From a phage, in sequence record PZ050807.1: a stretch of DNA of 45,190 bases. One strand, given 5' to 3'. Made by a program: the position numbers and the translations under genes. Shown in pieces: positions 3,895-44,651 of this stretch; within the stretch, counting starts at the first letter, position 1; each line of letters begins with the position of its first letter. The notes under the pieces were generated by a model that had not been told where the DNA came from, did not search any database, and saw only the letters and a program-made list of their open reading frames with translations.

Positions 3895-3932
3895 TGGTTA
3901 ATATAGTGCAACCAAATACGGATTGCAACCAA
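3895..3932 (-). promoter_or_regulatory. Sigma70-type early promoter (minus strand): -35 TTGCAA, 17-nt spacer ending in ATTGGTTGCAC, -10 TATATT
   Basis: Read on the minus strand: TTGCAA(3928..3923)-17 nt-TATATT(3905..3900); two copies of the TTGGTTGCA motif. Confidence 0.55.
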
Positions 3933-5352: not shown

Positions 5353-5390
5353 CCCCCAATATAATGCAACCAATCTCGCAATGCAACCAA
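5353..5390 (-). promoter_or_regulatory. Sigma70-type early promoter (minus strand) of the TTGGTTGCA family
   Basis: Minus strand: TTGCAT(5386..5381)-17 nt-TATATT(5363..5358); two TTGGTTGCA copies. Confidence 0.55.
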
Positions 5391-14883: not shown

Positions 14884-15177
14884 ATGAATACGACTAAATT
14901 GAATGCTTTGTTAGATATGGTTGAGAATGGTGTTGATGTTGGTGCGGCCCGCGACGCTATTAACGTTGCGTTCAAAGACCTGGCCTACAAACTGGAATTA
15001 CTGAACGGTACGGCGGCGAGCAAGCTGCAAAAGCATAACGAAGAAATGGAAGAATACAAAAAGCAGGTTATCAGACTGCGCGAAGAGGGTAAGTCCTGGG
15101 CAATGATTGCCGAGCTAACAGGCATTAATCAAAGCACTGTACGCTCCTGGGTACGCAATGCTAAAACCGCTAAGTAA
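14884..15177 (+). CDS. Small HTH DNA-binding protein (putative transcriptional regulator)
   Basis: C-terminal helix-turn-helix SWAMIAELTGINQSTVRSWVRN; RBS AGGAGA. Confidence 0.55.
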   Translation: MNTTKLNALLDMVENGVDVGAARDAINVAFKDLAYKLELLNGTAASKLQKHNEEMEEYKKQVIRLREEGKSWAMIAELTGINQSTVRSWVRNAKTAK

Positions 15178-15189
15178 GGACTTGAGAAG

Positions 15190-17454
15190 ATGAGAAATAT
15201 AGAATTTGCGATCACACCCCCCGCTAAGAAAGGCGAATCTGCGGTAGCTCATAACCAGTCCATGACTACCGCCGAGTTTTTCGAATTTATCCAGGATGCA
15301 CCGGTAGTGTCGTCAGTTTGCATTAACGGTACTGAAGATAAAAAAGAATATGCGCGACGTAAGCGTAAAGGCGACGGCATTGTGGCTACAACCGCCGATG
15401 GCACGCGTAAAAAGACTGGCGTGGTTAGCCGCTCGATCCTGTTCTTCGACCTGGACCGTGCTGACAACCGCACACTTACCCGCTGCCGCAGGGCTTTCCG
15501 CAAGTCCGGCCTGGAATATGTCTACCACACCACCACCGGCGACCGCCACCCGTTGAAAGACGGCAAGCGCTGTGTGCGTTTCCTGGTGCTGACAAACAAG
15601 CCAGTTCCGGCGGAAGACTTGGGTCGCGCGCAGGCTGCACTGCTTGAGCAACTGGGTCTTACCGACGCGGGCTTTGATGACTGCTCGAAAGACACAAACC
15701 GCCTTATGTACCTGCCCCACCAGCAGGCTAAGGTCGAGTGTCATGAGGGTGAACGCGCTAACGTGCGTCGTCTGCTTCGCCTGGCTGACAAGATGGGTAT
15801 TGAGCAGGAAACGTTTCGCCGTGAACTGGTGCAGGGCGACGACGAGCAGATGAACGGCATCCTCGACTGGTGTTTCCAGGCTGGTTTTGAGCCGTTACCA
15901 TCCGGGCGCGGTTATGAAGTACCGTGCCCAAACGAACATCTGCACTCTGGTGAAGGGTCTACCGCTATCATGCTTAAGGATGGCGAGATTCGTTTCAAAT
16001 GTATGCACACCGGCAACGGATGCTGTTCTGAACTGAACAAACACCAACACCTGGCGCTGCGAATGATTGGTATCCCGGATATTTATAACGTGGAACCTCA
16101 CAACATGTCGCGCAAACAGATCTCGGCAATCCTGCCCGGACTGGACGATGAAGAAGTGGACGCGCAGTATGAGCACATGGTCGATCTGGTTGGCGAAGGT
16201 GAGGATTATGCGTCCTGTACTGACGCAGACCTGGAAGACGAACCAACGGCACTGTTCTCTAAACACGACCCGATCATCGAAGGTCTGATTAACTTCAAAT
16301 CGACCTGGTACGCAGCGGGTGAGTCGAACATTGGTAAATCCTTCTACATCCTGGGTCAGATGGCTGCCGTTGCCGCGGGCATCCCGTTCGGGGGCGCGAA
16401 GGTCGTCCAGTCGCATTGCTTCTACTTCGATGCGGAAGGTGGCGAGGCGTCCATCCAGCGTAAAGAAGCATTGCAGATTAAATATGAGCATGATCTTGAC
16501 AAGCTGCACATTGTTGACCTTCAGGCACGCGGCTGGGATATTACGAGCAAATCCGGCCTGCGTGAAGTAATCAGCTTTATCAACCGCACAGCGGATGGGG
16601 AACCGGTCGGCCTGGTGGCGTTCGACTCCCTTAACCAGACCGTGGCCCTGCGCTCGGCAGATGCCAAACCGTTCGACGAGAACAACGCAAGCGATATGGG
16701 TGAGATTGTCAAAGCGCTGAAGTCCATTGCGGAAAACACAGGAGGCAGTGCGGGCGTCATTCACCACCCGGCGAAGGGTGCAAACGGCAGCCGATCCCCG
16801 CGTGGGTCCGGTGCGCTACATGGCGCGGTGGATTCTGCATTCTTCCTGGAACAGCCAGACGAGAATCAGCCCGGACAGCTTAACCTGTATCATGAGAAAG
16901 CCCGTAACGGCGTAAAACAGGGTCCACGCGGCTTCGTACTACTTAAGTGCAAAGTGTCCATTAACGAGCGCAAGTCCGACACGTTCGAAGCGCACCAGTC
17001 CACTAACCCTGGTCCAGACTTCGGCGATGTGGTTGCCGGTTGGGACGTCAAGCCAATCCAGGCCACCCCGCGTGATGAGACTCTGTACCTTGTACCGGTA
17101 GCTCTGGCCCCGTTCGCTATCGAACAGGCGAAGGCCGCGGGCAAGCAGGCTGTTAAGGAAGAAAACCCCGCCGGTCCGCGCAATGAAAAAGAGAAAGTGC
17201 TTTACGCAGCGCTCGAAGCGTTGATGGAAGAGAATCCGGGACACCATGGCTTCAGCAAATCGGCAATCGTCCGCAAAGCCGGACTGGCGAAAGGTGGCAC
17301 ATCGACGAAGCCAATAGACGATATGCGTGAGCGCGGAATCATCGGCTTTTACAAAGACCCTGACACCGGGGCCATTTACGGGTCGTCGAATCTGGTTATC
17401 AATTCACAAATACCTATGCAATTGACGGCGACGGACGACGACCTTAAAGATTAA
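15190..17454 (+). CDS. DNA primase / replicative helicase fusion (primase-like N-terminal domain plus P-loop ATPase)
   Basis: Walker A GESNIGKSFYILG, Walker B LVAFDSLNQ; N-terminal primase-like region with Cys/His cluster (CPNEHLHSGEGS...CMHTGNGCC). Confidence 0.8.
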   Translation: MRNIEFAITPPAKKGESAVAHNQSMTTAEFFEFIQDAPVVSSVCINGTEDKKEYARRKRKGDGIVATTADGTRKKTGVVSRSILFFDLDRADNRTLTRCRRAFRKSGLEYVYHTTTGDRHPLKDGKRCVRFLVLTNKPVPAEDLGRAQAALLEQLGLTDAGFDDCSKDTNRLMYLPHQQAKVECHEGERANVRRLLRLADKMGIEQETFRRELVQGDDEQMNGILDWCFQAGFEPLPSGRGYEVPCPNEHLHSGEGSTAIMLKDGEIRFKCMHTGNGCCSELNKHQHLALRMIGIPDIYNVEPHNMSRKQISAILPGLDDEEVDAQYEHMVDLVGEGEDYASCTDADLEDEPTALFSKHDPIIEGLINFKSTWYAAGESNIGKSFYILGQMAAVAAGIPFGGAKVVQSHCFYFDAEGGEASIQRKEALQIKYEHDLDKLHIVDLQARGWDITSKSGLREVISFINRTADGEPVGLVAFDSLNQTVALRSADAKPFDENNASDMGEIVKALKSIAENTGGSAGVIHHPAKGANGSRSPRGSGALHGAVDSAFFLEQPDENQPGQLNLYHEKARNGVKQGPRGFVLLKCKVSINERKSDTFEAHQSTNPGPDFGDVVAGWDVKPIQATPRDETLYLVPVALAPFAIEQAKAAGKQAVKEENPAGPRNEKEKVLYAALEALMEENPGHHGFSKSAIVRKAGLAKGGTSTKPIDDMRERGIIGFYKDPDTGAIYGSSNLVINSQIPMQLTATDDDLKD

Positions 17455-17461
17455 AATTTGC

Positions 17462-17542
17462 GCGCATTGGTTGCCAATATGGTTAATTTGTGCGCGCATT
17501 GGTTGCCAGATTGGGCATTAAATCTATATCGCATTGGTTGCC
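17462..17542 (+). repeat. Three direct iterons GCGCATTGGTTGCC spaced about 35 bp apart (candidate origin or operator array)
   Basis: Repeat copies at 17462, 17494 and 17530, immediately after the primase-helicase stop. Confidence 0.6.
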
Positions 17543-17580
17543 GTGTAGTGCTAAATAAGTGAATAGTTATGCAAAATAAG

Positions 17581-17755
17581 TGCATAAAACAAACGGGACA
17601 AAAACGGGACAAACGACAAACGGGACAAAACGGGACGTCCCGCCGTCCCCCTCAGGAGTGGCGCGGGTTTGAGGCAAACGGGACAAGCGGGACAGACCAC
17701 AGTCTTTCAGACTAGACGGGGGGTATGGTCCCCCCTCCGTCTGAGACTGCATAAA
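17581..17755. repeat. Structured non-coding element A: ACGGGACA iterons, CGGGACGTCCCG palindrome and a long stem-loop; paralogue of 34104..34440
   Basis: Direct comparison with copy B: about 150 bp near-identical. Confidence 0.6.
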
Positions 17756-17907
17756 AGCTCTGGTTGCATAATCAACGGCAGCATAGTGAAAAATGCGGCG
17801 GGGGTAGATCTCGGCAACCAATGCGAGTTGAAGAGTGGAGAGTGAAAAATGCAGTTTGCAATTGCAACTCATAGCGATCAGCATTTTCATGCGCGTGATT
17901 AATATTG

Positions 17908-17936
17908 GTTGCACCCACCTTGGCACCTTGCTATAT
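17908..17936 (+). promoter_or_regulatory. Rightward promoter of the TTGGTTGCA family: -35 TTGCAC, 17 nt, -10 TATATT
   Basis: TTGCAC(17908..17913)-17 nt-TATATT(17931..17936). Confidence 0.5.
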
Positions 17937-17965
17937 TGGCTGCACACCATCATGAGGACTGAACA

Positions 17966-28479: not shown

Positions 28480-28508
28480 AATATATTGCAACCAATTAGC
28501 CAATGCAA
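28480..28508 (-). promoter_or_regulatory. Early-type promoter (minus strand): -35 TTGCAT, 17 nt with ATTGGTTGCAA, -10 TATATT
   Basis: Minus strand: TTGCAT(28508..28503)-17 nt-TATATT(28485..28480). Confidence 0.5.
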
Positions 28509-28515
28509 GCAAATT

Positions 28516-28544
28516 TTGTGATTATTTTTATCACTGATAATATT
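28516..28544 (+). promoter_or_regulatory. Candidate promoter for the scaffold/capsid genes: TTGTGA-17 nt-TAATAT
   Basis: Hexamer match by eye. Confidence 0.4.
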
Positions 28545-28598
28545 AAGGGCGTGAAGTCGAGCGGGTGGCCCGCTCTGCCACAATCCCTGGGGGATGTT

Positions 28599-33775: not shown

Positions 33776-34089
33776 TTGAGGCGGCGCGACGCTTCTATGG
33801 TCCGCCGCCACCGTCCGAAGACCTTGCCGCTAGTTTATGGGGTGCGGCCCCCGAAGATATTTGTCCGCCAGTTGCATTATGGCCTGATAACGTACAGGTC
33901 GTTGCCGTTTTCACTGACTGCTCAACGCAGTGGCGCACCGGTTTTAACGGAGCATACGGCATCGACTACGGCGTGCTGGAATGGCTATTTAAAATGCACG
34001 GCATCGAAAATGAGAAGCGAGCTTTTAAAGATATCAAGTTAATGGAGCGTATTGCACTCGACGAAATTGCAGCACAACAGGCCGGGTAA
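33766..34089 (+). CDS. Tail assembly chaperone extension (gpT-like), expressed as a G-T fusion by -1 programmed frameshift at A_AAA_AAC
   Basis: Heptamer A AAA AAC at 33766..33772; the -1 frame is open from 33766 to the TAA at 34087..34089. Confidence 0.5.
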   Translation, partial: KKLIEAARRFYGPPPPSEDLAASLWGAAPEDICPPVALWPDNVQVVAVFTDCSTQWRTGFNGAYGIDYGVLEWLFKMHGIENEKRAFKDIKLMERIALDEIAAQQAG

Positions 34090-34103
34090 TTCCGGCCTTT
34101 TTC
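34080..34103 (+). terminator. Intrinsic terminator after the GT chaperone ORF
   Basis: GGCCGG-GTAATT-CCGGCC followed by TTTTT. Confidence 0.6.
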
Positions 34104-34106
34104 ATA

Positions 34107-34430
34107 GCGGGACAGCGGGACGTCCCGTTTTTGTCCCGCTGTCCCGCCCCGCCAAAAACTGCATACCTATTCAGAAATACTGCATAAAACCAAAACGGGA
34201 CAAAAACGGGACAAGCAGGACGTCCCGCCTCAAAAGTGCATATCTATGCAGTTTTCATGCATAAAACGAACGGGACAAAAACGGGACAAACTGCAAGCGG
34301 GACAGAGCGGGACGTCCCGCCGTCCCTGCCAGAGCTGCCGCGGGTTTCAGCCGATCGGGACAGGCGGGACAAAGCCAAGTCTTTCAGACTAGACGGGGGT
34401 CAATGGCCCCCTCCGTCTGAGACTGAATAA
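34107..34430. repeat. Structured non-coding element B: GGGAC/GTCCC iterons, palindromes and a conserved stem-loop; paralogue of 17581..17755
   Basis: Several ACGGGACA iterons, three GGGACGTCCC palindromes, 13-bp inverted repeat GCGGGACAGCGGG/CCCGCTGTCCCGC, hairpin at 34378..34425. Confidence 0.6.
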
Positions 34431-34492
34431 GGTTGGTTGCAAAATGACTGATACAATACAAACGGCAACTTGCATAAAAAGGGGACTGCATA

Positions 34493-37135
34493 ATGGCAGA
34501 TCAAGCGGCAGGCATCACGCTAAAGGCGGATGTTGCACAAATCAGAACGGCGAATACTGTGCTTGATTCATTCGCACAGAAATCCGAGAACACAGAAAAC
34601 AAGGTTAAGAAGTTAAACAACACCCTCGGCAAATCTAAAAAGGTGACGAGTGATGCCGCTGGCGGAATGGAAAAGCTGGCGAACGAATCGCATCGAGCAG
34701 CCGATGGCATGACGAAACAGGAGCGACTCGCCAACCGGTTAGGCATGTCGACCAAAAACCTGGGCTTTGCCTCGCATAACGCCGCATTCCAGTTACAGGA
34801 TATAGCGGTTACGCTTGAGATGGGTATGCCGGTGCACCGCGTCATGCTTCAGCAGTTACCACAGCTTACTGGGGCGTTCGGTGGGTTTGGTAACACGCTG
34901 CGTTATGTTGCTGGCTTCCTCGGCCCAGTAGGGATCGGAATTGCAGCACTAACGGCAACGTTAGGCGTAGGGGTGGCAATTACGACACGTGCCGAAAACC
35001 AGGTAGCAGCGCTTAACAAGACGCTGGCGCTATCCGGTAACATTTCCGGCCTAACTGCAAACCAGATCCTGGTGCTATCCGAGAACGCCGAGCGCATGGG
35101 CGGGTCGTTCCGCAAGACGCGTGACACAATCCAGGCGCTGGCGGCGGCGGGTGTGAAAGCGGGTGCAGACTTCGGCACGCTGGCGAAAGTGGTGAATGAT
35201 TTTGCGAAGGTGTCCAGCCAGCCGATCGAGGATGTGGTCGCGGCGGTGGCGAAGCTGTCTACCGACCCGGTAGGTGGCTTGCGAGCATTGGCTGATAAGT
35301 ATCACGTCGTAAACGAAGCGCAGATCCAGCAGGTGCAGTCACTAGTGACGGCTGGTCGCGAAACCGAAGCGGTGGCGCTGGCTAACAAAACAGCCGCAGC
35401 GTCGTTTACCACTATGACCAATGAGATCAAGTCCAACATGGGTACGCTTGAGCGGTCGATGAACGTCGTTACATCGGCAGCTAAATCTATGTGGGATGCC
35501 ATCCTGGATGTTGGACGCGCGCAGTCCTCGAATGAGTCAGAGATGAAAGCGCGTGAATCATTGCAGCGACTGACCACGGCTTACTATGCCGAGATGAAAG
35601 CGGTAAACGCTGCCGGTGGGGTGATGACCGAAGCGCAGAAAGCGCGTATTAACATGCTTTACAGCGAACTGGTCGCCCAGGAGAAGGTGGTGGCGTCGCT
35701 CACCATGCGCAACCGTGCCGAGCGGGACAACGCCAGCGCCGCGGACGCAGCAGCAAAGGCGAACGAAGAGGCAAACCGCACCGCCCGCGACCGCGCTGCG
35801 TTTGAGAAGGAGTACGCAACCAACGCGAAGAGGCGCGCCGACGAGATCGCCCGCCTCAATTTGCTTAATAAGCGCGGCGTGATTGACGAGAAAGAGCTTG
35901 CCGAGGCGGTGAAGCAGGTAAACGAGCGTTACAAAGACCCCGCCCCGAAGAAGGCCGCCGCTGTTCGAGTCGATGCCGGGCTGAAAATGCTGGAAGTAGC
36001 ACGGAGCGAACTGGCACAGCTTCGTGAGTCTGGAAAGCAGATCGAAGCCAACTCCTCGACGCAGACCCGAACGCAACGCGCGCAAGCGGCCCTGAACAAG
36101 CTGATCGCGGATAATGAGCAGTTAATCGCCGCAAGCAAAGAAAGAGCACTAACGGCAGCCGAAAAGCAGCAGATGGTCGAATTCGGACGCGTGAAGGAAG
36201 TACGCGAGCAGATCGTCGAAGAAGCCAAATTGCTGGACGCGAAAGAGAAGCAGGTCAAGGCGCACGCGCAGATCGACGCCTTCGTTAAGAACCAGAACGC
36301 CGAGCTAAAAGCCACCGCGGCGGGCTATGCGCTTTCCACTCGCGAAGCGGCAAACCTGCGTGAAGAATTGCAGCTAATTGACCGCCTGAAGCGGGTGGGC
36401 GCTAGTGATGCCGATATTGATCTGGCGGTGTCTAAACTGCGCGAAGTGCAGGAAGCACAGACCGGTGCTAACGCCTCACTATGGGATGGATTCAGCCGTG
36501 GGCTTAAGGATAGCGTGGATGAAATGGGTAACGGCTATACGCAGATGGTATCGGCAACGAAATTTACATTCGGCGCTATGATGGACACGATGAATGAATT
36601 TTTCGAGACTGGTAAATTCAACGCGAAGGAAATGATTAAATCCATCCTGAGCGAATTTATCAAGCTGGCTACCTCGCAGGCGTTCAAGTCCGTAATCAAC
36701 GCATTCGGCGGTGACGGTGGGAAGAATGGTCTGTTCGGGGCAATCTTCTCCGGTCTGACGAAGAATGCCGACGGTGGAGCGTACGCTGGCGGCAACCTGT
36801 CCGCATATTCCGGTCAGATCGTAAGCCAGCCAACCTTTTTCAATTACGGCGTTAAGGCGTTCGCTAACGGCGCGGGATTGATGGGTGAGGCTGGGCCGGA
36901 GGCCATCATGCCGCTGAAGCGCGGGCCGGACGGTAAACTGGGCGTTGCCGCAAGTGGGGCTGGTGGTGGTATCGTCGTGACAACGAACGTGAACATGGGT
37001 ACAGGGCAGGCTGACACCAGCGTTAAAGGGACCGACCCGCGAATGGGGCAGGTATTCGGCAAGCAGATCACGGAAGCGGTTAAGGCCGAAATCGTGAAAG
37101 CGACTAAACCAGGTGGAGTACTTTACAAACGATGA
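34493..37135 (+). CDS. Tail tape measure protein
   Basis: 880 aa, coiled-coil rich, downstream of G/GT chaperones and upstream of tail-tip genes. Confidence 0.85.
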   Translation: MADQAAGITLKADVAQIRTANTVLDSFAQKSENTENKVKKLNNTLGKSKKVTSDAAGGMEKLANESHRAADGMTKQERLANRLGMSTKNLGFASHNAAFQLQDIAVTLEMGMPVHRVMLQQLPQLTGAFGGFGNTLRYVAGFLGPVGIGIAALTATLGVGVAITTRAENQVAALNKTLALSGNISGLTANQILVLSENAERMGGSFRKTRDTIQALAAAGVKAGADFGTLAKVVNDFAKVSSQPIEDVVAAVAKLSTDPVGGLRALADKYHVVNEAQIQQVQSLVTAGRETEAVALANKTAAASFTTMTNEIKSNMGTLERSMNVVTSAAKSMWDAILDVGRAQSSNESEMKARESLQRLTTAYYAEMKAVNAAGGVMTEAQKARINMLYSELVAQEKVVASLTMRNRAERDNASAADAAAKANEEANRTARDRAAFEKEYATNAKRRADEIARLNLLNKRGVIDEKELAEAVKQVNERYKDPAPKKAAAVRVDAGLKMLEVARSELAQLRESGKQIEANSSTQTRTQRAQAALNKLIADNEQLIAASKERALTAAEKQQMVEFGRVKEVREQIVEEAKLLDAKEKQVKAHAQIDAFVKNQNAELKATAAGYALSTREAANLREELQLIDRLKRVGASDADIDLAVSKLREVQEAQTGANASLWDGFSRGLKDSVDEMGNGYTQMVSATKFTFGAMMDTMNEFFETGKFNAKEMIKSILSEFIKLATSQAFKSVINAFGGDGGKNGLFGAIFSGLTKNADGGAYAGGNLSAYSGQIVSQPTFFNYGVKAFANGAGLMGEAGPEAIMPLKRGPDGKLGVAASGAGGGIVVTTNVNMGTGQADTSVKGTDPRMGQVFGKQITEAVKAEIVKATKPGGVLYKR

Positions 37136-44599: not shown

Positions 44600-44628
44600 A
44601 ATATAGTGCAACCAATACGTGATTGCAA
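44600..44628 (-). promoter_or_regulatory. Early-type promoter (minus strand): -35 TTGCAA, 17 nt with ATTGGTTGCAC, -10 TATATT
   Basis: Minus strand: TTGCAA(44628..44623)-17 nt-TATATT(44605..44600). Confidence 0.55.
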
Positions 44629-44651
44629 CCAATTTATGAGGAGTTTTCGCT

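What the first reader, a model, noticed from the sequence alone, without database searches (positions are those of the whole stretch)
17581..17755. Second copy of the GGGAC element carries a compensatory stem change
Copy A is CAGTCTTTCAGACTAGACGGGGGG-TATGGT-CCCCCCTCCGTCTGAGACTG; copy B is CAGTCTTTCAGACTAGACGGGGG-TCAATGG-CCCCCTCCGTCTGAGACTG. The G-run and its pairing C-run grow together (6/6 versus 5/5) while the loop differs. That is the signature of selection on structure rather than on primary sequence. Copy A lies in the roughly 510-bp non-coding region downstream of the primase-helicase gene, a classic position for a replication origin.
Basis: partly seen in the sequence, partly recalled or inferred. 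Interest (0 to 1): 0.75.

Follow-up and report, generated by a model that had tools for sequence, protein, structure and literature searches.

The report
Probable phage replication origin with hairpin

Summary
The window is a whole Dhillonvirus-type coliphage genome. Both hairpin copies exist: A at 17700-17749 and B at 34377-34425. Each closes a ~170-nt module made of an AT-rich box, CGGGAC(A) repeats 9-11 bp apart with one inverted copy, a spacer, two more repeats, then the hairpin.

The 6/6 versus 5/5 difference is real. Across 33 related hairpins, though, the run lengths are 5/6 (21), 6/6 (6), 5/5 (3) and 6/5 (3), with no association, so it is not evidence of compensation. Within the genus the arms never vary, so they carry no covariation signal either.

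Real compensation appears only in distant relatives (Guernseyvirinae), which keep the same architecture at the same place with different repeats and different, still complementary, arms.

The upstream gene encodes an AEP-fold primase, a RepA-type helicase and a C-terminal winged helix. That C-terminal domain swaps between two phages together with the repeats and hairpin.

The best reading is an iteron-plus-hairpin replication origin, resembling SaPI ori, P4 ori/crr, RSF1010 oriV/ssi and the pRN1 stem-loop. Confidence is about 0.55 and function is untested. The rivals are an operator array and an RNA element. No description of it turned up in the four full-text searches run.

The parts
14884..15177 (+). 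97-aa helix-turn-helix protein (sigma-70 region 4-like), first gene of the operon that also encodes the primase-helicase
   Evidence: Pfam Sigma70_r4_2 at 1.5e-7 and HTH_23. Its HTH end is conserved in Dhillon-like relatives whatever their iteron type, so it is probably not the iteron binder.
15190..17454 (+). Primase-helicase gene (754 aa): N-terminal AEP-fold primase, zinc-binding motif, RepA/DnaB-like AAA_25 helicase, C-terminal winged helix
17191..17451 (+). [quoted passage not shown]
   Evidence: AF2 model gives H-b-H-H-b-b with a core pLDDT of 80-90. Foldseek hits are MarR, histone H1, ORC2 winged helix and DnaD, with probability 0.9-0.99 but weak E-values. The domain is much more divergent than the protein core.
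17464..17542 (+). Three direct GCATTGGTTGCC boxes, the same TTGGTTGC motif that is doubled over the early promoters
   Evidence: Box number varies among relatives.
17548..17593 (+). AT-rich stretch (74% AT) holding the 13-mer GAATAGTTATGCA (17561-17573) and TGCATAA (17581-17587); a possible unwinding element
   Evidence: The 13-mer is conserved even in Guernseyvirinae whose iterons differ.
17594..17649 (+). Iteron block 1: CGGGAC at 17594, 17605, 17621 and 17631, an inverted copy at 17637-17642, and a further GTCCC at 17645
   Evidence: Start-to-start spacing is 11, 16 and 10 bp. 17 of 18 columns of iterons 1-2 are invariant.
17650..17678 (+). G+C-rich spacer between the two iteron blocks; the least conserved part of the module
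   Evidence: 9 of 27 columns invariant. It is AT-rich instead in relatives with GTGGCA or GTGCCA iterons.
17679..17693 (+). Iteron block 2: two CGGGACA repeats 9 bp apart
17700..17749 (.). Hairpin/palindrome copy A, with a G6 / TATGGT / C6 apex
   Evidence: Both strands fold about equally well. Arms are invariant in 15 genomes.
17775..17782 (+). ACGGCAGC motif 25-35 nt after the hairpin
   Evidence: Present after the hairpin in Dhillonvirus and in four of the six Guernseyvirinae-type module loci checked; phiEap-2 has only CGGCAAC. Role unknown.
17813..17824 (-). Inverted GCATTGGTTGCC box, so module A is bracketed by these boxes
17909..17937 (+). Sigma-70-type promoter TTGCAC-N17-TATATT for the downstream genes
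   Evidence: Read from the sequence. The simple scanner missed it. Conserved in relatives.
34079..34103 (+). Canonical intrinsic terminator after the tail-chaperone genes; an insertion specific to this lineage
   Evidence: Present only in the window and L034 among 15 genomes.
34108..34146 (.). Iteron palindrome B0: two direct and three inverted CGGGAC copies
34181..34227 (+). Partial module B1: TGCATAAAAC, two CGGGACA, CAGGAC, and an inverted GTCCCG
34258..34370 (+). Full module B2: TGCATAAAAC, iterons at 34271, 34282, 34298 and 34308, an inverted copy at 34314, a spacer, then iterons at 34356 and 34365
   Evidence: The spacing is identical to copy A.
34377..34425 (.). Hairpin/palindrome copy B, with a G5 / TCAATGG / C5 apex
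34449..34457 (+). Extended -10 promoter element TGATACAAT ahead of the tape-measure gene (which starts at 34493)
   Evidence: Read from the sequence. 9 of 9 columns invariant in 15 genomes.

Best explanation
The hairpin is the distal element of an iteron-type replication origin that lies directly downstream of the phage's initiator gene. A second copy of the origin module sits between the tail-chaperone and tape-measure genes.

**Proposed mechanism (inferred).**
1. The C-terminal winged helix of the 754-aa AEP-primase/RepA-type-helicase protein binds the phased CGGGAC(A) repeats.
2. The helicase assembles on the DNA and opens the duplex.
3. The 50-bp imperfect palindrome next to the last two repeats folds into a hairpin on the exposed strand or strands.
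4. The hairpin then serves as the loading or priming signal for the protein's own primase domain, as ssiA/ssiB do for RepB' in RSF1010 and as proposed for the pRN1 stem-loop.
5. Copy B is a second origin or an auxiliary initiator-binding site, like SPP1 oriR or P4 crr.

**Shown:** the anatomy, its conservation, the domain folds and the cassette-like inheritance.

**Inferred:** who binds the repeats, that the DNA folds in vivo, and that replication starts here.
For: 1. **Position and architecture.** The module begins about 100 nt after the primase-helicase stop codon. It comprises a 74% AT box, six direct and one inverted CGGGAC, and then the hairpin. Iterons cluster only at A and B in the whole genome.
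2. **Deep conservation with changed sequence.** The same order of parts follows the orthologous gene (40-48% aa identity) in L022, L023, L025, Pantoea AH01, Hafnia TS33, phiEap-2 and FSL SP-031. The iterons are lineage-specific: CGGACAA, CCGACAG, GGGATAA, GGGGATR and GGGGAGA. The hairpin arms differ but stay complementary.
3. **Iteron link to the hairpin.** In seven of those lineages the apical loop or 3' strand carries an inverted copy of that lineage's own iteron, matching 6-7 of 7 bases. Shuffle p is 0.004-0.02 in five lineages and about 0.07 in two.
4. **The protein.**
   - The helicase belongs to Pfam AAA_25, which from memory includes RSF1010 RepA; the AH01 orthologue carries a 'DNA Helicase RepA' note.
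   - The C-terminal domain is a predicted winged helix.
5. **Cassette inheritance.** AH01 and L022 are about 90% identical over helicase nt 1-1980. Identity drops to about 50% from residue ~660 through the C-terminal domain, iterons and hairpin, then returns to 98%. The C-terminal domain is 41-67% identical among Guernseyvirinae-type relatives (SP-031/Shemara, a near-identical pair, excepted), against 61-95% for the protein core.
6. **Strand symmetry.** Both strands fold equally well. This fits a DNA palindrome better than a strand-specific RNA.
7. **Published analogues.**
   - SaPI Rep/PriRep: a C-terminal winged helix binds 5-6-nt iterons located immediately downstream of the rep ORF, in both orientations (PMC9371898).
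   - pRN1: a stem-loop downstream of the AEP-primase/helicase/winged-helix gene is required for replication. P4 alpha and RSF1010 are summarised in the same paper (PMC4234260).
   - HK578, a Dhillonvirus: mutants that escape the OLD defence map to the helicase-primase and to its promoter, and OLD senses ssDNA hairpins at the lambda origin (bioRxiv 10.64898/2026.07.10.737580).
Against: - No experiment and no replication data bear on this element.
- GC skew turns at about 14-15 kb, where gene orientation flips. It is uninformative here.
- In this phage the spacer between the iteron blocks is G+C-rich, not the AT-rich centre of SaPI-type origins.
- The match between C-terminal-domain sequence and iteron type is only partial:
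  - P0012 keeps CGGGACA iterons with a different recognition helix.
  - P0014 has a similar helix but GTGGCA iterons.
  - A prediction made from helix 2 failed for P0010.
- The inverted iteron in the loop is not significant in the window's own lineage (5 of 7 matches, p about 0.4).
- One lineage, Cornellvirus SP-031, lacks the outer stem.
- A second copy in the middle of the tail genes is not required by an origin model.
- Arms that never vary point to sequence-specific duplex recognition, which needs no folding.
Confidence: 0.55

Rival explanations
1. A transcriptional control region in duplex DNA. The CGGGAC repeats and the palindrome would be operator sites for a phage regulator that switches the adjacent promoters. 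The 'hairpin' would simply be a symmetric binding site that never folds.
For: - The arms are invariant in sequence, not merely in pairing.
- X-loop-X' units such as AGTCT-TTC-AGACT look like sites for a dimeric protein.
- Copy B ends about 25 nt before an invariant extended -10 element, TGATACAAT.
- A sigma-70 promoter follows the module in every lineage.
- Covariation of inverted repeats is equally expected for dimer half-sites.
Against: - The distance from hairpin to the next promoter is not conserved: about 160 nt in copy A, about 50 nt in Guernseyvirinae and 25 nt in copy B.
- Iterons occur at only two loci. They are absent from the other promoters, which carry a different motif, the doubled ATTGGTTGCA.
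- The small HTH genes next to the module do not change when the iterons change.
- A self-complementary G/C-rich centre with a free loop has no obvious role in a flat operator.
Confidence: 0.2
2. An RNA element in the readthrough transcript. It could be a processing site (for example RNase III), a 3'-end stabiliser or non-canonical terminator, or an anti-termination or regulatory hairpin with two copies, like nutL/nutR or putL/putR.
For: - Both copies lie in the sense orientation between + strand genes, with no terminator ahead of copy A.
- The stem has about 19-20 pairs with bulges and -25 to -29 kcal/mol, a size typical of RNase III substrates (general knowledge).
- A few G-U pairs are used on the + strand in relatives.
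Against: - No U-tract follows either copy, and the scanner calls no terminator there.
- There is no Rfam match, even at E up to 1; only chance microRNA hits appeared.
- The minus strand folds as well as or better than the plus strand in most lineages.
- The loop varies freely, so it is not a boxB-like recognition loop.
- The flanking repeats occur in both orientations with 9-11 bp phasing, which points to duplex DNA recognition.
Confidence: 0.15
3. A packaging, genome-end or recombination site (cos/pac, a nick site or a resolution site).
For: Several assemblies end inside the module:
- GenBank MZ234029 starts at the equivalent of window position ~34399.
- IMG/VR contig L033 starts 96 nt before the tape-measure gene.
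- Contigs L160, L163 and L165 end in the iterons.
Against: - Breaks at a sequence repeated within the genome are what short-read assemblers produce.
- PhageTerm on Dhillonvirus EE09 gave a 10-nt 5' cos, ATCTTAAGGG, unrelated to the hairpin (PMC10673088). The nearest match in the window is at 28540.
- Most GenBank records start at the terminase gene instead.
Confidence: 0.04

Closest known systems
SaPI (staphylococcal pathogenicity island) ori with Rep / PriRep self-loading helicase
   Same: - The initiator is a helicase, fused to a primase in SaPI5.
- Its C-terminal winged helix reads penta- or hexanucleotide iterons.
- There are 6-12 iterons immediately downstream of the rep ORF, in two groups with opposite orientations (PMC9371898).
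- Here there are 6-9 hexanucleotide iterons in two groups, with inverted copies, downstream of a primase-helicase that carries a predicted C-terminal winged helix.
   Different: - The SaPI helicase is SF3/AAA+; this one is a RecA-type AAA_25 helicase.
- The SaPI centre is AT-rich and has no hairpin. Here the centre is G+C-rich and a 50-bp palindrome follows the second iteron group.
- The whole module is duplicated here.
- There is no sequence homology.
RSF1010 / IncQ oriV (iterons plus ssiA/ssiB hairpins) with RepC, RepA and RepB'
   Same: - The cis site also combines iterons with a stem-loop (summary in PMC4234260).
   Different: - Here all three activities appear to sit in one polypeptide.
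- The iterons are 6-7 nt rather than 20 bp.
- There is one near-palindrome rather than two ssi sites on opposite strands.
- Sequence similarity to ssiA/ssiB was not tested.
pRN1 plasmid origin and Bordetella phage BIP-1 (stem-loop 3' of the replication protein gene)
   Same: - A stem-loop downstream of a gene encoding an AEP primase, a helicase and a winged helix.
[quoted passage not shown]
   Different: - pRN1 has an SF3 helicase, a stem-loop of about 100 nt and no iterons.
- Here the helicase is RecA-type, the hairpin is 50 nt and there are clear iterons.
Two-site phage origins: P4 ori/crr (alpha protein) and SPP1 oriL/oriR (G38P)
   Same: - In both, the initiator binds repeated sites at two distant places in the genome.
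- P4 alpha is a primase-helicase with a winged-helix origin-binding domain (PMC4234260).
- The SPP1 comparison is from memory.
   Different: - P4 alpha has a Toprim primase and an SF3 helicase.
- Neither system has a conserved long hairpin next to the repeats.
- No homology was detected.

Membership tests
Iteron-type origin next to a self-loading initiator helicase (SaPI-like) | Initiator helicase carries a C-terminal winged-helix DNA-binding domain | tested here: met
   The AF2 model of the last 115 aa gives a winged-helix topology with core pLDDT 80-90. Foldseek hits are winged-helix proteins with probability 0.9-0.99, though E-values are only 0.02-0.2.
Iteron-type origin next to a self-loading initiator helicase (SaPI-like) | Six to twelve 5-6-nt iterons immediately downstream of the initiator ORF | tested here: met
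   Copy A has seven CGGGAC copies (six direct, one inverted) plus one GTCCC core within 140-240 nt of the stop codon, and clusters occur only at loci A and B. The same holds in eight other lineages, each with its own iteron.
Iteron-type origin next to a self-loading initiator helicase (SaPI-like) | Iterons flank an AT-rich centre and point in opposite directions | tested here: inconclusive
   Opposite orientations are present (17637-17642, and the palindrome at 34108-34146). The central spacer is G+C-rich in this phage, and the 74% AT stretch lies upstream instead. The spacer is AT-rich in the GTGGCA- and GTGCCA-type relatives.
Iteron-type origin next to a self-loading initiator helicase (SaPI-like) | Initiator binds its own iterons specifically, and the site supports replication | not testable with these tools
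   Only indirect evidence exists. The C-terminal domain, iterons and hairpin are exchanged as one block between AH01 and L022. The residue-to-iteron correlation is partial.
IncQ (RSF1010) oriV with ssi hairpins | RepA-family hexameric helicase and a RepB'-like AEP primase | tested here: met
   [not shown]
IncQ (RSF1010) oriV with ssi hairpins | Two ssi hairpins on opposite strands next to 20-bp iterons | tested here: not met
   Each module has one near-palindromic hairpin, and the iterons are 6-7 nt. Both strands can fold. It may work like IncQ, but it is not a member.
pRN1-type stem-loop origin | Large stem-loop 3' of a gene for an AEP primase, SF3 helicase and winged helix | tested here: inconclusive
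   The stem-loop, the AEP fold and the winged helix are all present. The helicase is not SF3, and iterons are present here, unlike in pRN1 (PMC4234260).
Intrinsic (Rho-independent) terminator | G+C-rich hairpin followed at once by a U-tract | tested here: not met
   The sequence after the hairpin is GCATAAAAGC in copy A and AATAAGGTTG in copy B. The scanner calls no terminator there on either strand, while it does find the true one at 34079.
Any described RNA family (Rfam 15) | Covariance-model match | tested here: not met
   No hit at gathering score in the whole window. Only chance microRNA-type hits appear at E up to 1 in either region.
Lambdoid nut/put-type anti-termination hairpins | Conserved recognition loop (boxB) or put two-stem fold downstream of early promoters | tested here: not met
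   The loop is the most variable part, with more than 10 loop sequences in 33 copies. No promoter lies immediately upstream.
cos/pac packaging site | Genome termini map to the site | tested here: inconclusive
   A published Dhillonvirus cos sequence (ATCTTAAGGG) is unrelated to the hairpin. The only near match in the window is at 28540, at chance level. No read data were available for this phage.

The most novel reading that the evidence does not exclude
Dhillonviruses and Guernseyvirinae would use a one-protein version of the IncQ initiation system, with the AEP primase, RepA-type helicase and iteron-reading winged helix fused in a single polypeptide. This protein would fire from two origin modules.

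In each module the conserved 50-nt palindrome would fold into single-stranded hairpins. Those hairpins would be both the priming signal and the molecular pattern that host defences such as OLD or Lamassu sense during infection.
Probability: 0.2. Interest if true: 0.65.

Novelty: new variant of a known kind. Interest (0 to 1): 0.45.

Why it matters
**A testable origin for a common phage group.** I found no mapped replication origin for Dhillonvirus or Guernseyvirinae phages in the four literature searches I ran. These are common E. coli and Salmonella phages, and isolates of both groups are characterised as candidate biocontrol agents in the papers retrieved. This work gives a precise, testable candidate and a candidate initiator domain.

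**Natural material for specificity experiments.** The lineage-specific iterons and the block exchange of C-terminal domain, iterons and hairpin offer a natural specificity-swap series.

**A link to host defence.** A defined hairpin at the origin would make a current question directly testable: what DNA structure do OLD- or Lamassu-type defences recognise in a lytic phage? HK578 mutants that escape OLD already map to this primase-helicase.

**A methodological caution.** Matching length changes in G and C homopolymer runs between two paralogues are not evidence of compensatory evolution.

Tried and rejected
- **Covariation within the genus.** This was impossible. The arms are invariant in 30 sequences, and the only variable stem feature, run length, shows no association.
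- **Strand asymmetry from G-U pairs and folding energy.** No consistent bias was found.
- **Rfam searches.** Nothing at gathering score or at E up to 1.
- **Terminator and promoter scans.** There is no terminator at the hairpin, and the scanner also misses the real TTGCA-type promoters.
- **GC skew as an origin marker.** It follows gene orientation only.
- **Two exact-pattern scans of viral contigs for a second copy in distant relatives.** They returned mostly chance hits and only the known site in the target contigs. This was poor use of two scans.
- **Plasmid search with the module.** No match.
- **Searches with the primase-helicase.** A PDB sequence search found nothing. A homologue search with the C-terminal domain alone found only two hits.
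- **DnaA-box reading of TTATGCA.** Rejected, because the CACA half of the box is not conserved.
- **The small HTH genes upstream as iteron binders.** Rejected, because they are unchanged between phages with different iterons.
- **Predicting iteron type from helix 2 of the C-terminal domain.** The prediction failed on P0010.
- **Genome end at the hairpin.** Judged an assembly artefact, because contigs break at an intragenomic repeat. No record starts at the putative cos match either.
- **Concordance of A and B iterons in a phage of another iteron type.** This could not be tested, because no complete genome of such a phage was available.

Full report
**1. What the window is**

The 45,190-bp window is a complete siphovirus genome of the genus Dhillonvirus. 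The region around the finding is 94.7% identical to Dhillonvirus LM40P1 and 93.5% identical to phage Ioannina. 159 GenBank phage records carry a homologous region, almost all with two or more matching places per genome.

The 754-aa ORF at 15190-17454 is the replicative helicase-primase (PF13481 AAA_25, PHROG 3228). The ORF at 34493 is the tape-measure gene.

**2. Checking the observation**

- Copy A is at 17700-17749, exactly as quoted. Copy B is at 34377-34425 and starts AAGTCT rather than CAGTCT. No other copy exists within 3 mismatches, and none is expected by chance.
- Both copies fold into a bulged stem of about 19 pairs. As RNA the energies are -28.9 and -25.4 kcal/mol (z = -4.1 and -3.4). 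As DNA z is -4.2 and -3.3.
- The 6/6 versus 5/5 difference is real but is not evidence of compensation. In 33 hairpins of this type from related phages the G/C run lengths are 5/6 (21), 6/6 (6), 5/5 (3) and 6/5 (3). Fisher p is 0.31 over all copies and 1.0 over distinct sequences. The commonest state is unequal.
- Inside the genus the 17-nt 5' arm and the 10-nt 3' arm are invariant in all 15 copy-A and all 15 copy-B sequences. The loop and the neighbouring spacer drift. The genus therefore holds no covariation information, and what is frozen is the primary sequence.

**3. The hairpin is the last part of a larger module**

Both copies end a ~170-nt unit that is about 85% identical between A and B. 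The order of parts is:

1. TGCATAAAAC.
2. CGGGACA twice, 11 bp apart.
3. CGGGACA twice, 10 bp apart, abutting an inverted GTCCCG.
4. A spacer of about 28 nt.
5. CGGGACA twice, 9 bp apart.
6. Six nucleotides, then the hairpin.

Additional features:
- Region B carries two further repeat clusters, at 34108-34146 and 34181-34227.
- CGGGAC clusters occur nowhere else in the genome.
- Upstream of copy A lies a 74% AT stretch with the 13-mer GAATAGTTATGCA, preceded by three GCATTGGTTGCC boxes. A fourth, inverted box lies downstream.
- The same TTGGTTGC motif, doubled, overlies TTGCAA-N17-TATATT promoters elsewhere in the genome.
- Region B occupies an unusual 450-bp non-coding gap between the tail-chaperone genes and the tape-measure gene. 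An invariant extended -10 element, TGATACAAT, lies 25 nt after hairpin B.

**4. Distant relatives keep the architecture but change the sequence**

The orthologous helicase-primase is only 40-48% identical in the relatives listed below, most of them Guernseyvirinae. In each of them the same order of parts follows the gene: two GAATAGTTATGCA boxes, direct iterons plus an inverted one, a spacer, two iterons, a long hairpin, TTATGCA-like boxes, ACGGCAGC or ACGGCAAC in most of them, and then a sigma-70 promoter.

| Lineage | Iteron | Hairpin arms |
|---|---|---|
| Window and most Dhillonviruses | CGGGACA | AGTCT/AGACT |
| Pantoea AH01, phiEap-2 | CGGACAA | AGTCT/AGACT |
| L022 | CCGACAG | CATC/GATG |
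| L023 | GGGATAA | CCTC/GAGG |
| Hafnia TS33 | GGGAGA / GGGATA | CCTC/GAGG |
| L025 | GGGGATR | TCTCC/GGAGA |
| FSL SP-031, Shemara | GGGGAGA | CTCC/GGAG on the 5' side only (outer stem lost) |

Dhillon-like metagenomic relatives, with 66-71% helicase identity, add the iterons GTGGCAA, GTGTGCCAA and GGTGCCA.

- Each lineage's outer arms are fully complementary apart from SP-031, and the middle stems pair in all but AH01, where RNAfold shifts the register.
- L022 and L023 differ by one coordinated change in every arm copy, A:T to C:G in the outer stem and T:A to G:C in the middle stem. This is true compensation.
- SP-031 has lost the outer stem.
- A more distant clade (L016-L021) has only terminators at this position.
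- In seven lineages the apical loop or 3' strand carries an inverted copy of that lineage's own iteron, matching 6-7 of 7 bases and usually the best match among all iteron types. Shuffle p is 0.004-0.02 in five lineages and about 0.07 in two. This does not hold in the window's own lineage (5 of 7 matches, p about 0.4).

**5. The protein encoded upstream**

- The middle of the protein is the AAA_25 helicase.
- The last ~90 residues fold as a winged helix, with core pLDDT 80-90. Foldseek hits are MarR, histone H1, ORC2 winged helix and DnaD, with high probability but weak E-values.
- This C-terminal domain is the fast-evolving part. It is 41-67% identical among Guernseyvirinae-type relatives (the near-identical SP-031/Shemara pair aside), against 61-95% for the protein core.
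- AH01 and L022 are about 90% identical over nucleotides 1-1980 of the gene. Identity falls to about 50% from residue ~660 through the C-terminal domain, iterons and hairpin, then returns to 98% in the 60-nt window that contains the promoter. The C-terminal domain and the cis module are therefore exchanged as one cassette.
- The small HTH genes upstream are unchanged between phages with different iterons.
- The residue-level correlation between the C-terminal domain and iteron type is only partial, and one prediction failed. Identifying the C-terminal domain as the iteron reader is an inference.

**6. Mechanism**

The best reading is an iteron-type origin whose distal element is a foldable palindrome.
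- The winged helix binds the phased repeats.
- The helicase assembles and opens the DNA.
- The palindrome folds on the exposed strands. Both strands fold equally well.
- The folded hairpin serves as the loading or priming signal for the AEP primase domain.
- Copy B is a second origin or an auxiliary binding site.

None of these steps has been observed; all are inferred. What has been shown is the anatomy, its conservation, the domain folds and the cassette-like exchange.

**7. Comparison with known systems**

- **SaPI origins** match best for the protein-and-iteron logic. A C-terminal winged helix of Rep/PriRep reads 5-6-nt iterons placed immediately downstream of the rep ORF, in two groups with opposite orientations (PMC9371898). 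They differ in having an SF3 helicase, an AT-rich centre and no hairpin.
- **RSF1010** supplies the hairpin logic. RepC binds iterons, RepA unwinds, and RepB' primes at the ssiA/ssiB stem-loops (summary in PMC4234260). Here the three activities appear fused in one protein, but iteron size and hairpin arrangement differ.
- **pRN1** shows experimentally that a stem-loop downstream of an AEP-primase/helicase/winged-helix gene can be the element required for replication. The authors noted a similar layout in Bordetella phages.
- **P4 ori/crr** and, from memory, **SPP1 oriL/oriR** are precedents for two initiator-binding loci in one genome.

The module works like these systems but is not a sequence member of any of them.

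**8. Rival explanations**

- **Duplex operator array (0.2).** Frozen arm sequence and the proximity of promoters favour it. Against it are the variable distance to promoters, the restriction to two loci, and the G/C-rich self-complementary centre.
- **RNA element (0.15).** Sense orientation and an RNase III-like stem length favour it. Against it are the absence of a U-tract, the absence of any Rfam match, the lack of strand bias, the free loop, and the flanking repeats in both orientations.
- **Packaging or genome-end site (0.04).** Several contigs end inside the module, but that is expected at an intragenomic repeat. The published Dhillonvirus cos sequence is unrelated (PMC10673088).

**9. 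Novelty and interest**

Four full-text searches found no description of this module or of an origin in these phages. One 2026 preprint reports that HK578 mutants escaping the OLD defence map to this helicase-primase and to its promoter. The same preprint shows that OLD senses ssDNA hairpins at the lambda origin. This makes the hairpin a concrete candidate trigger.

I rate the element a new variant of a known kind. It has moderate interest (0.45) because function is untested and the general logic is familiar. The specific claim the finding was built on, compensatory growth of the G and C runs, is not supported.

Noticed in passing
window 3915-3932, 5373-5390, 28481-28495 and 44615-44632 (all - strand); 17905-17937 (+): Early-type promoters share a doubled ATTGGTTGCA box. 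The first box supplies the -35 element (TTGCAA), and the second sits in the 17-nt spacer before TATATT. This looks like an operator built into each promoter. The simple promoter scanner misses all of them.
   Followed up: partly
window 17464-17542 (+) and 17813-17824 (-): Three direct copies and one inverted copy of GCATTGGTTGCC bracket module A. The number of upstream copies varies from one to three among relatives. Guernseyvirinae have an analogous ATGTTGGCTG box in the same place.
   Followed up: partly
window 17561-17573; also L022, L023, L025, L153 (AH01 45186, 45207), L155, L156: The 13-mer GAATAGTTATGCA, often present twice about 21 bp apart, is conserved ahead of the iterons. It persists even between phages whose helicase is only ~45% identical and whose iterons differ. 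It is not a DnaA box, because the CACA half is not conserved. What binds it is unknown.
   Followed up: partly
window 34043-34492: A 450-bp non-coding region separates the tail-assembly-chaperone genes from the tape-measure gene. In Pantoea phage AH01 these genes overlap (L153 22697-22704). GenBank records of some relatives annotate 'hypothetical proteins' in the gap, but one-base indels among relatives argue against coding.
   Followed up: partly
window 34079-34103: A textbook intrinsic terminator (AGGCCGGGTAATTCCGGCCT followed by TTTTT) is present here and in the closest relative (L034). It is absent, as a clean 13-nt gap, from 13 other Dhillonviruses.
   Followed up: partly
GenBank MZ234029 position 1; L033 start; ends of L160, L163 and L165: Five independent assemblies break inside the iteron/hairpin module, two of them within hairpin B itself. 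The most likely cause is assembly-graph breaks at the A/B repeat. This is a caution for anyone inferring genome ends from these records.
   Followed up: partly
L153 (Pantoea phage AH01) 12349-12376: A second, minimal iteron cluster (CGGACAG, CGGACAA, then inverted TGTCC) with no hairpin sits in a head-gene intergenic region. Second initiator-site loci may therefore not be confined to Dhillonvirus.
   Followed up: no
window 17775-17782; 34464-34471 (ACGGCAAC): An ACGGCAGC or ACGGCAAC motif recurs 25-40 nt after the hairpin in nearly every lineage with the module. It lies in the block where AH01 and L022 return to near-identity (a 98% 60-nt window). It could be a priming or start site, but it also occurs inside genes.
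   Followed up: no
window 28540-28549: ATATTAAGGG differs by one base from the 10-nt 5' cos overhang reported for Dhillonvirus EE09 (ATCTTAAGGG). It lies in a divergent intergenic region. One such match is expected by chance, and no GenBank record starts there.
   Followed up: partly
L161 3880-3900, L162 2880-2905, L163 and L165: In relatives with GTGGCA- or GTGCCA-type iterons the spacer between the iteron blocks is AT-rich and carries a conserved GATTTATAAGGAG motif. In the window's lineage the spacer is G+C-rich. The reason for this difference is unknown.
   Followed up: no
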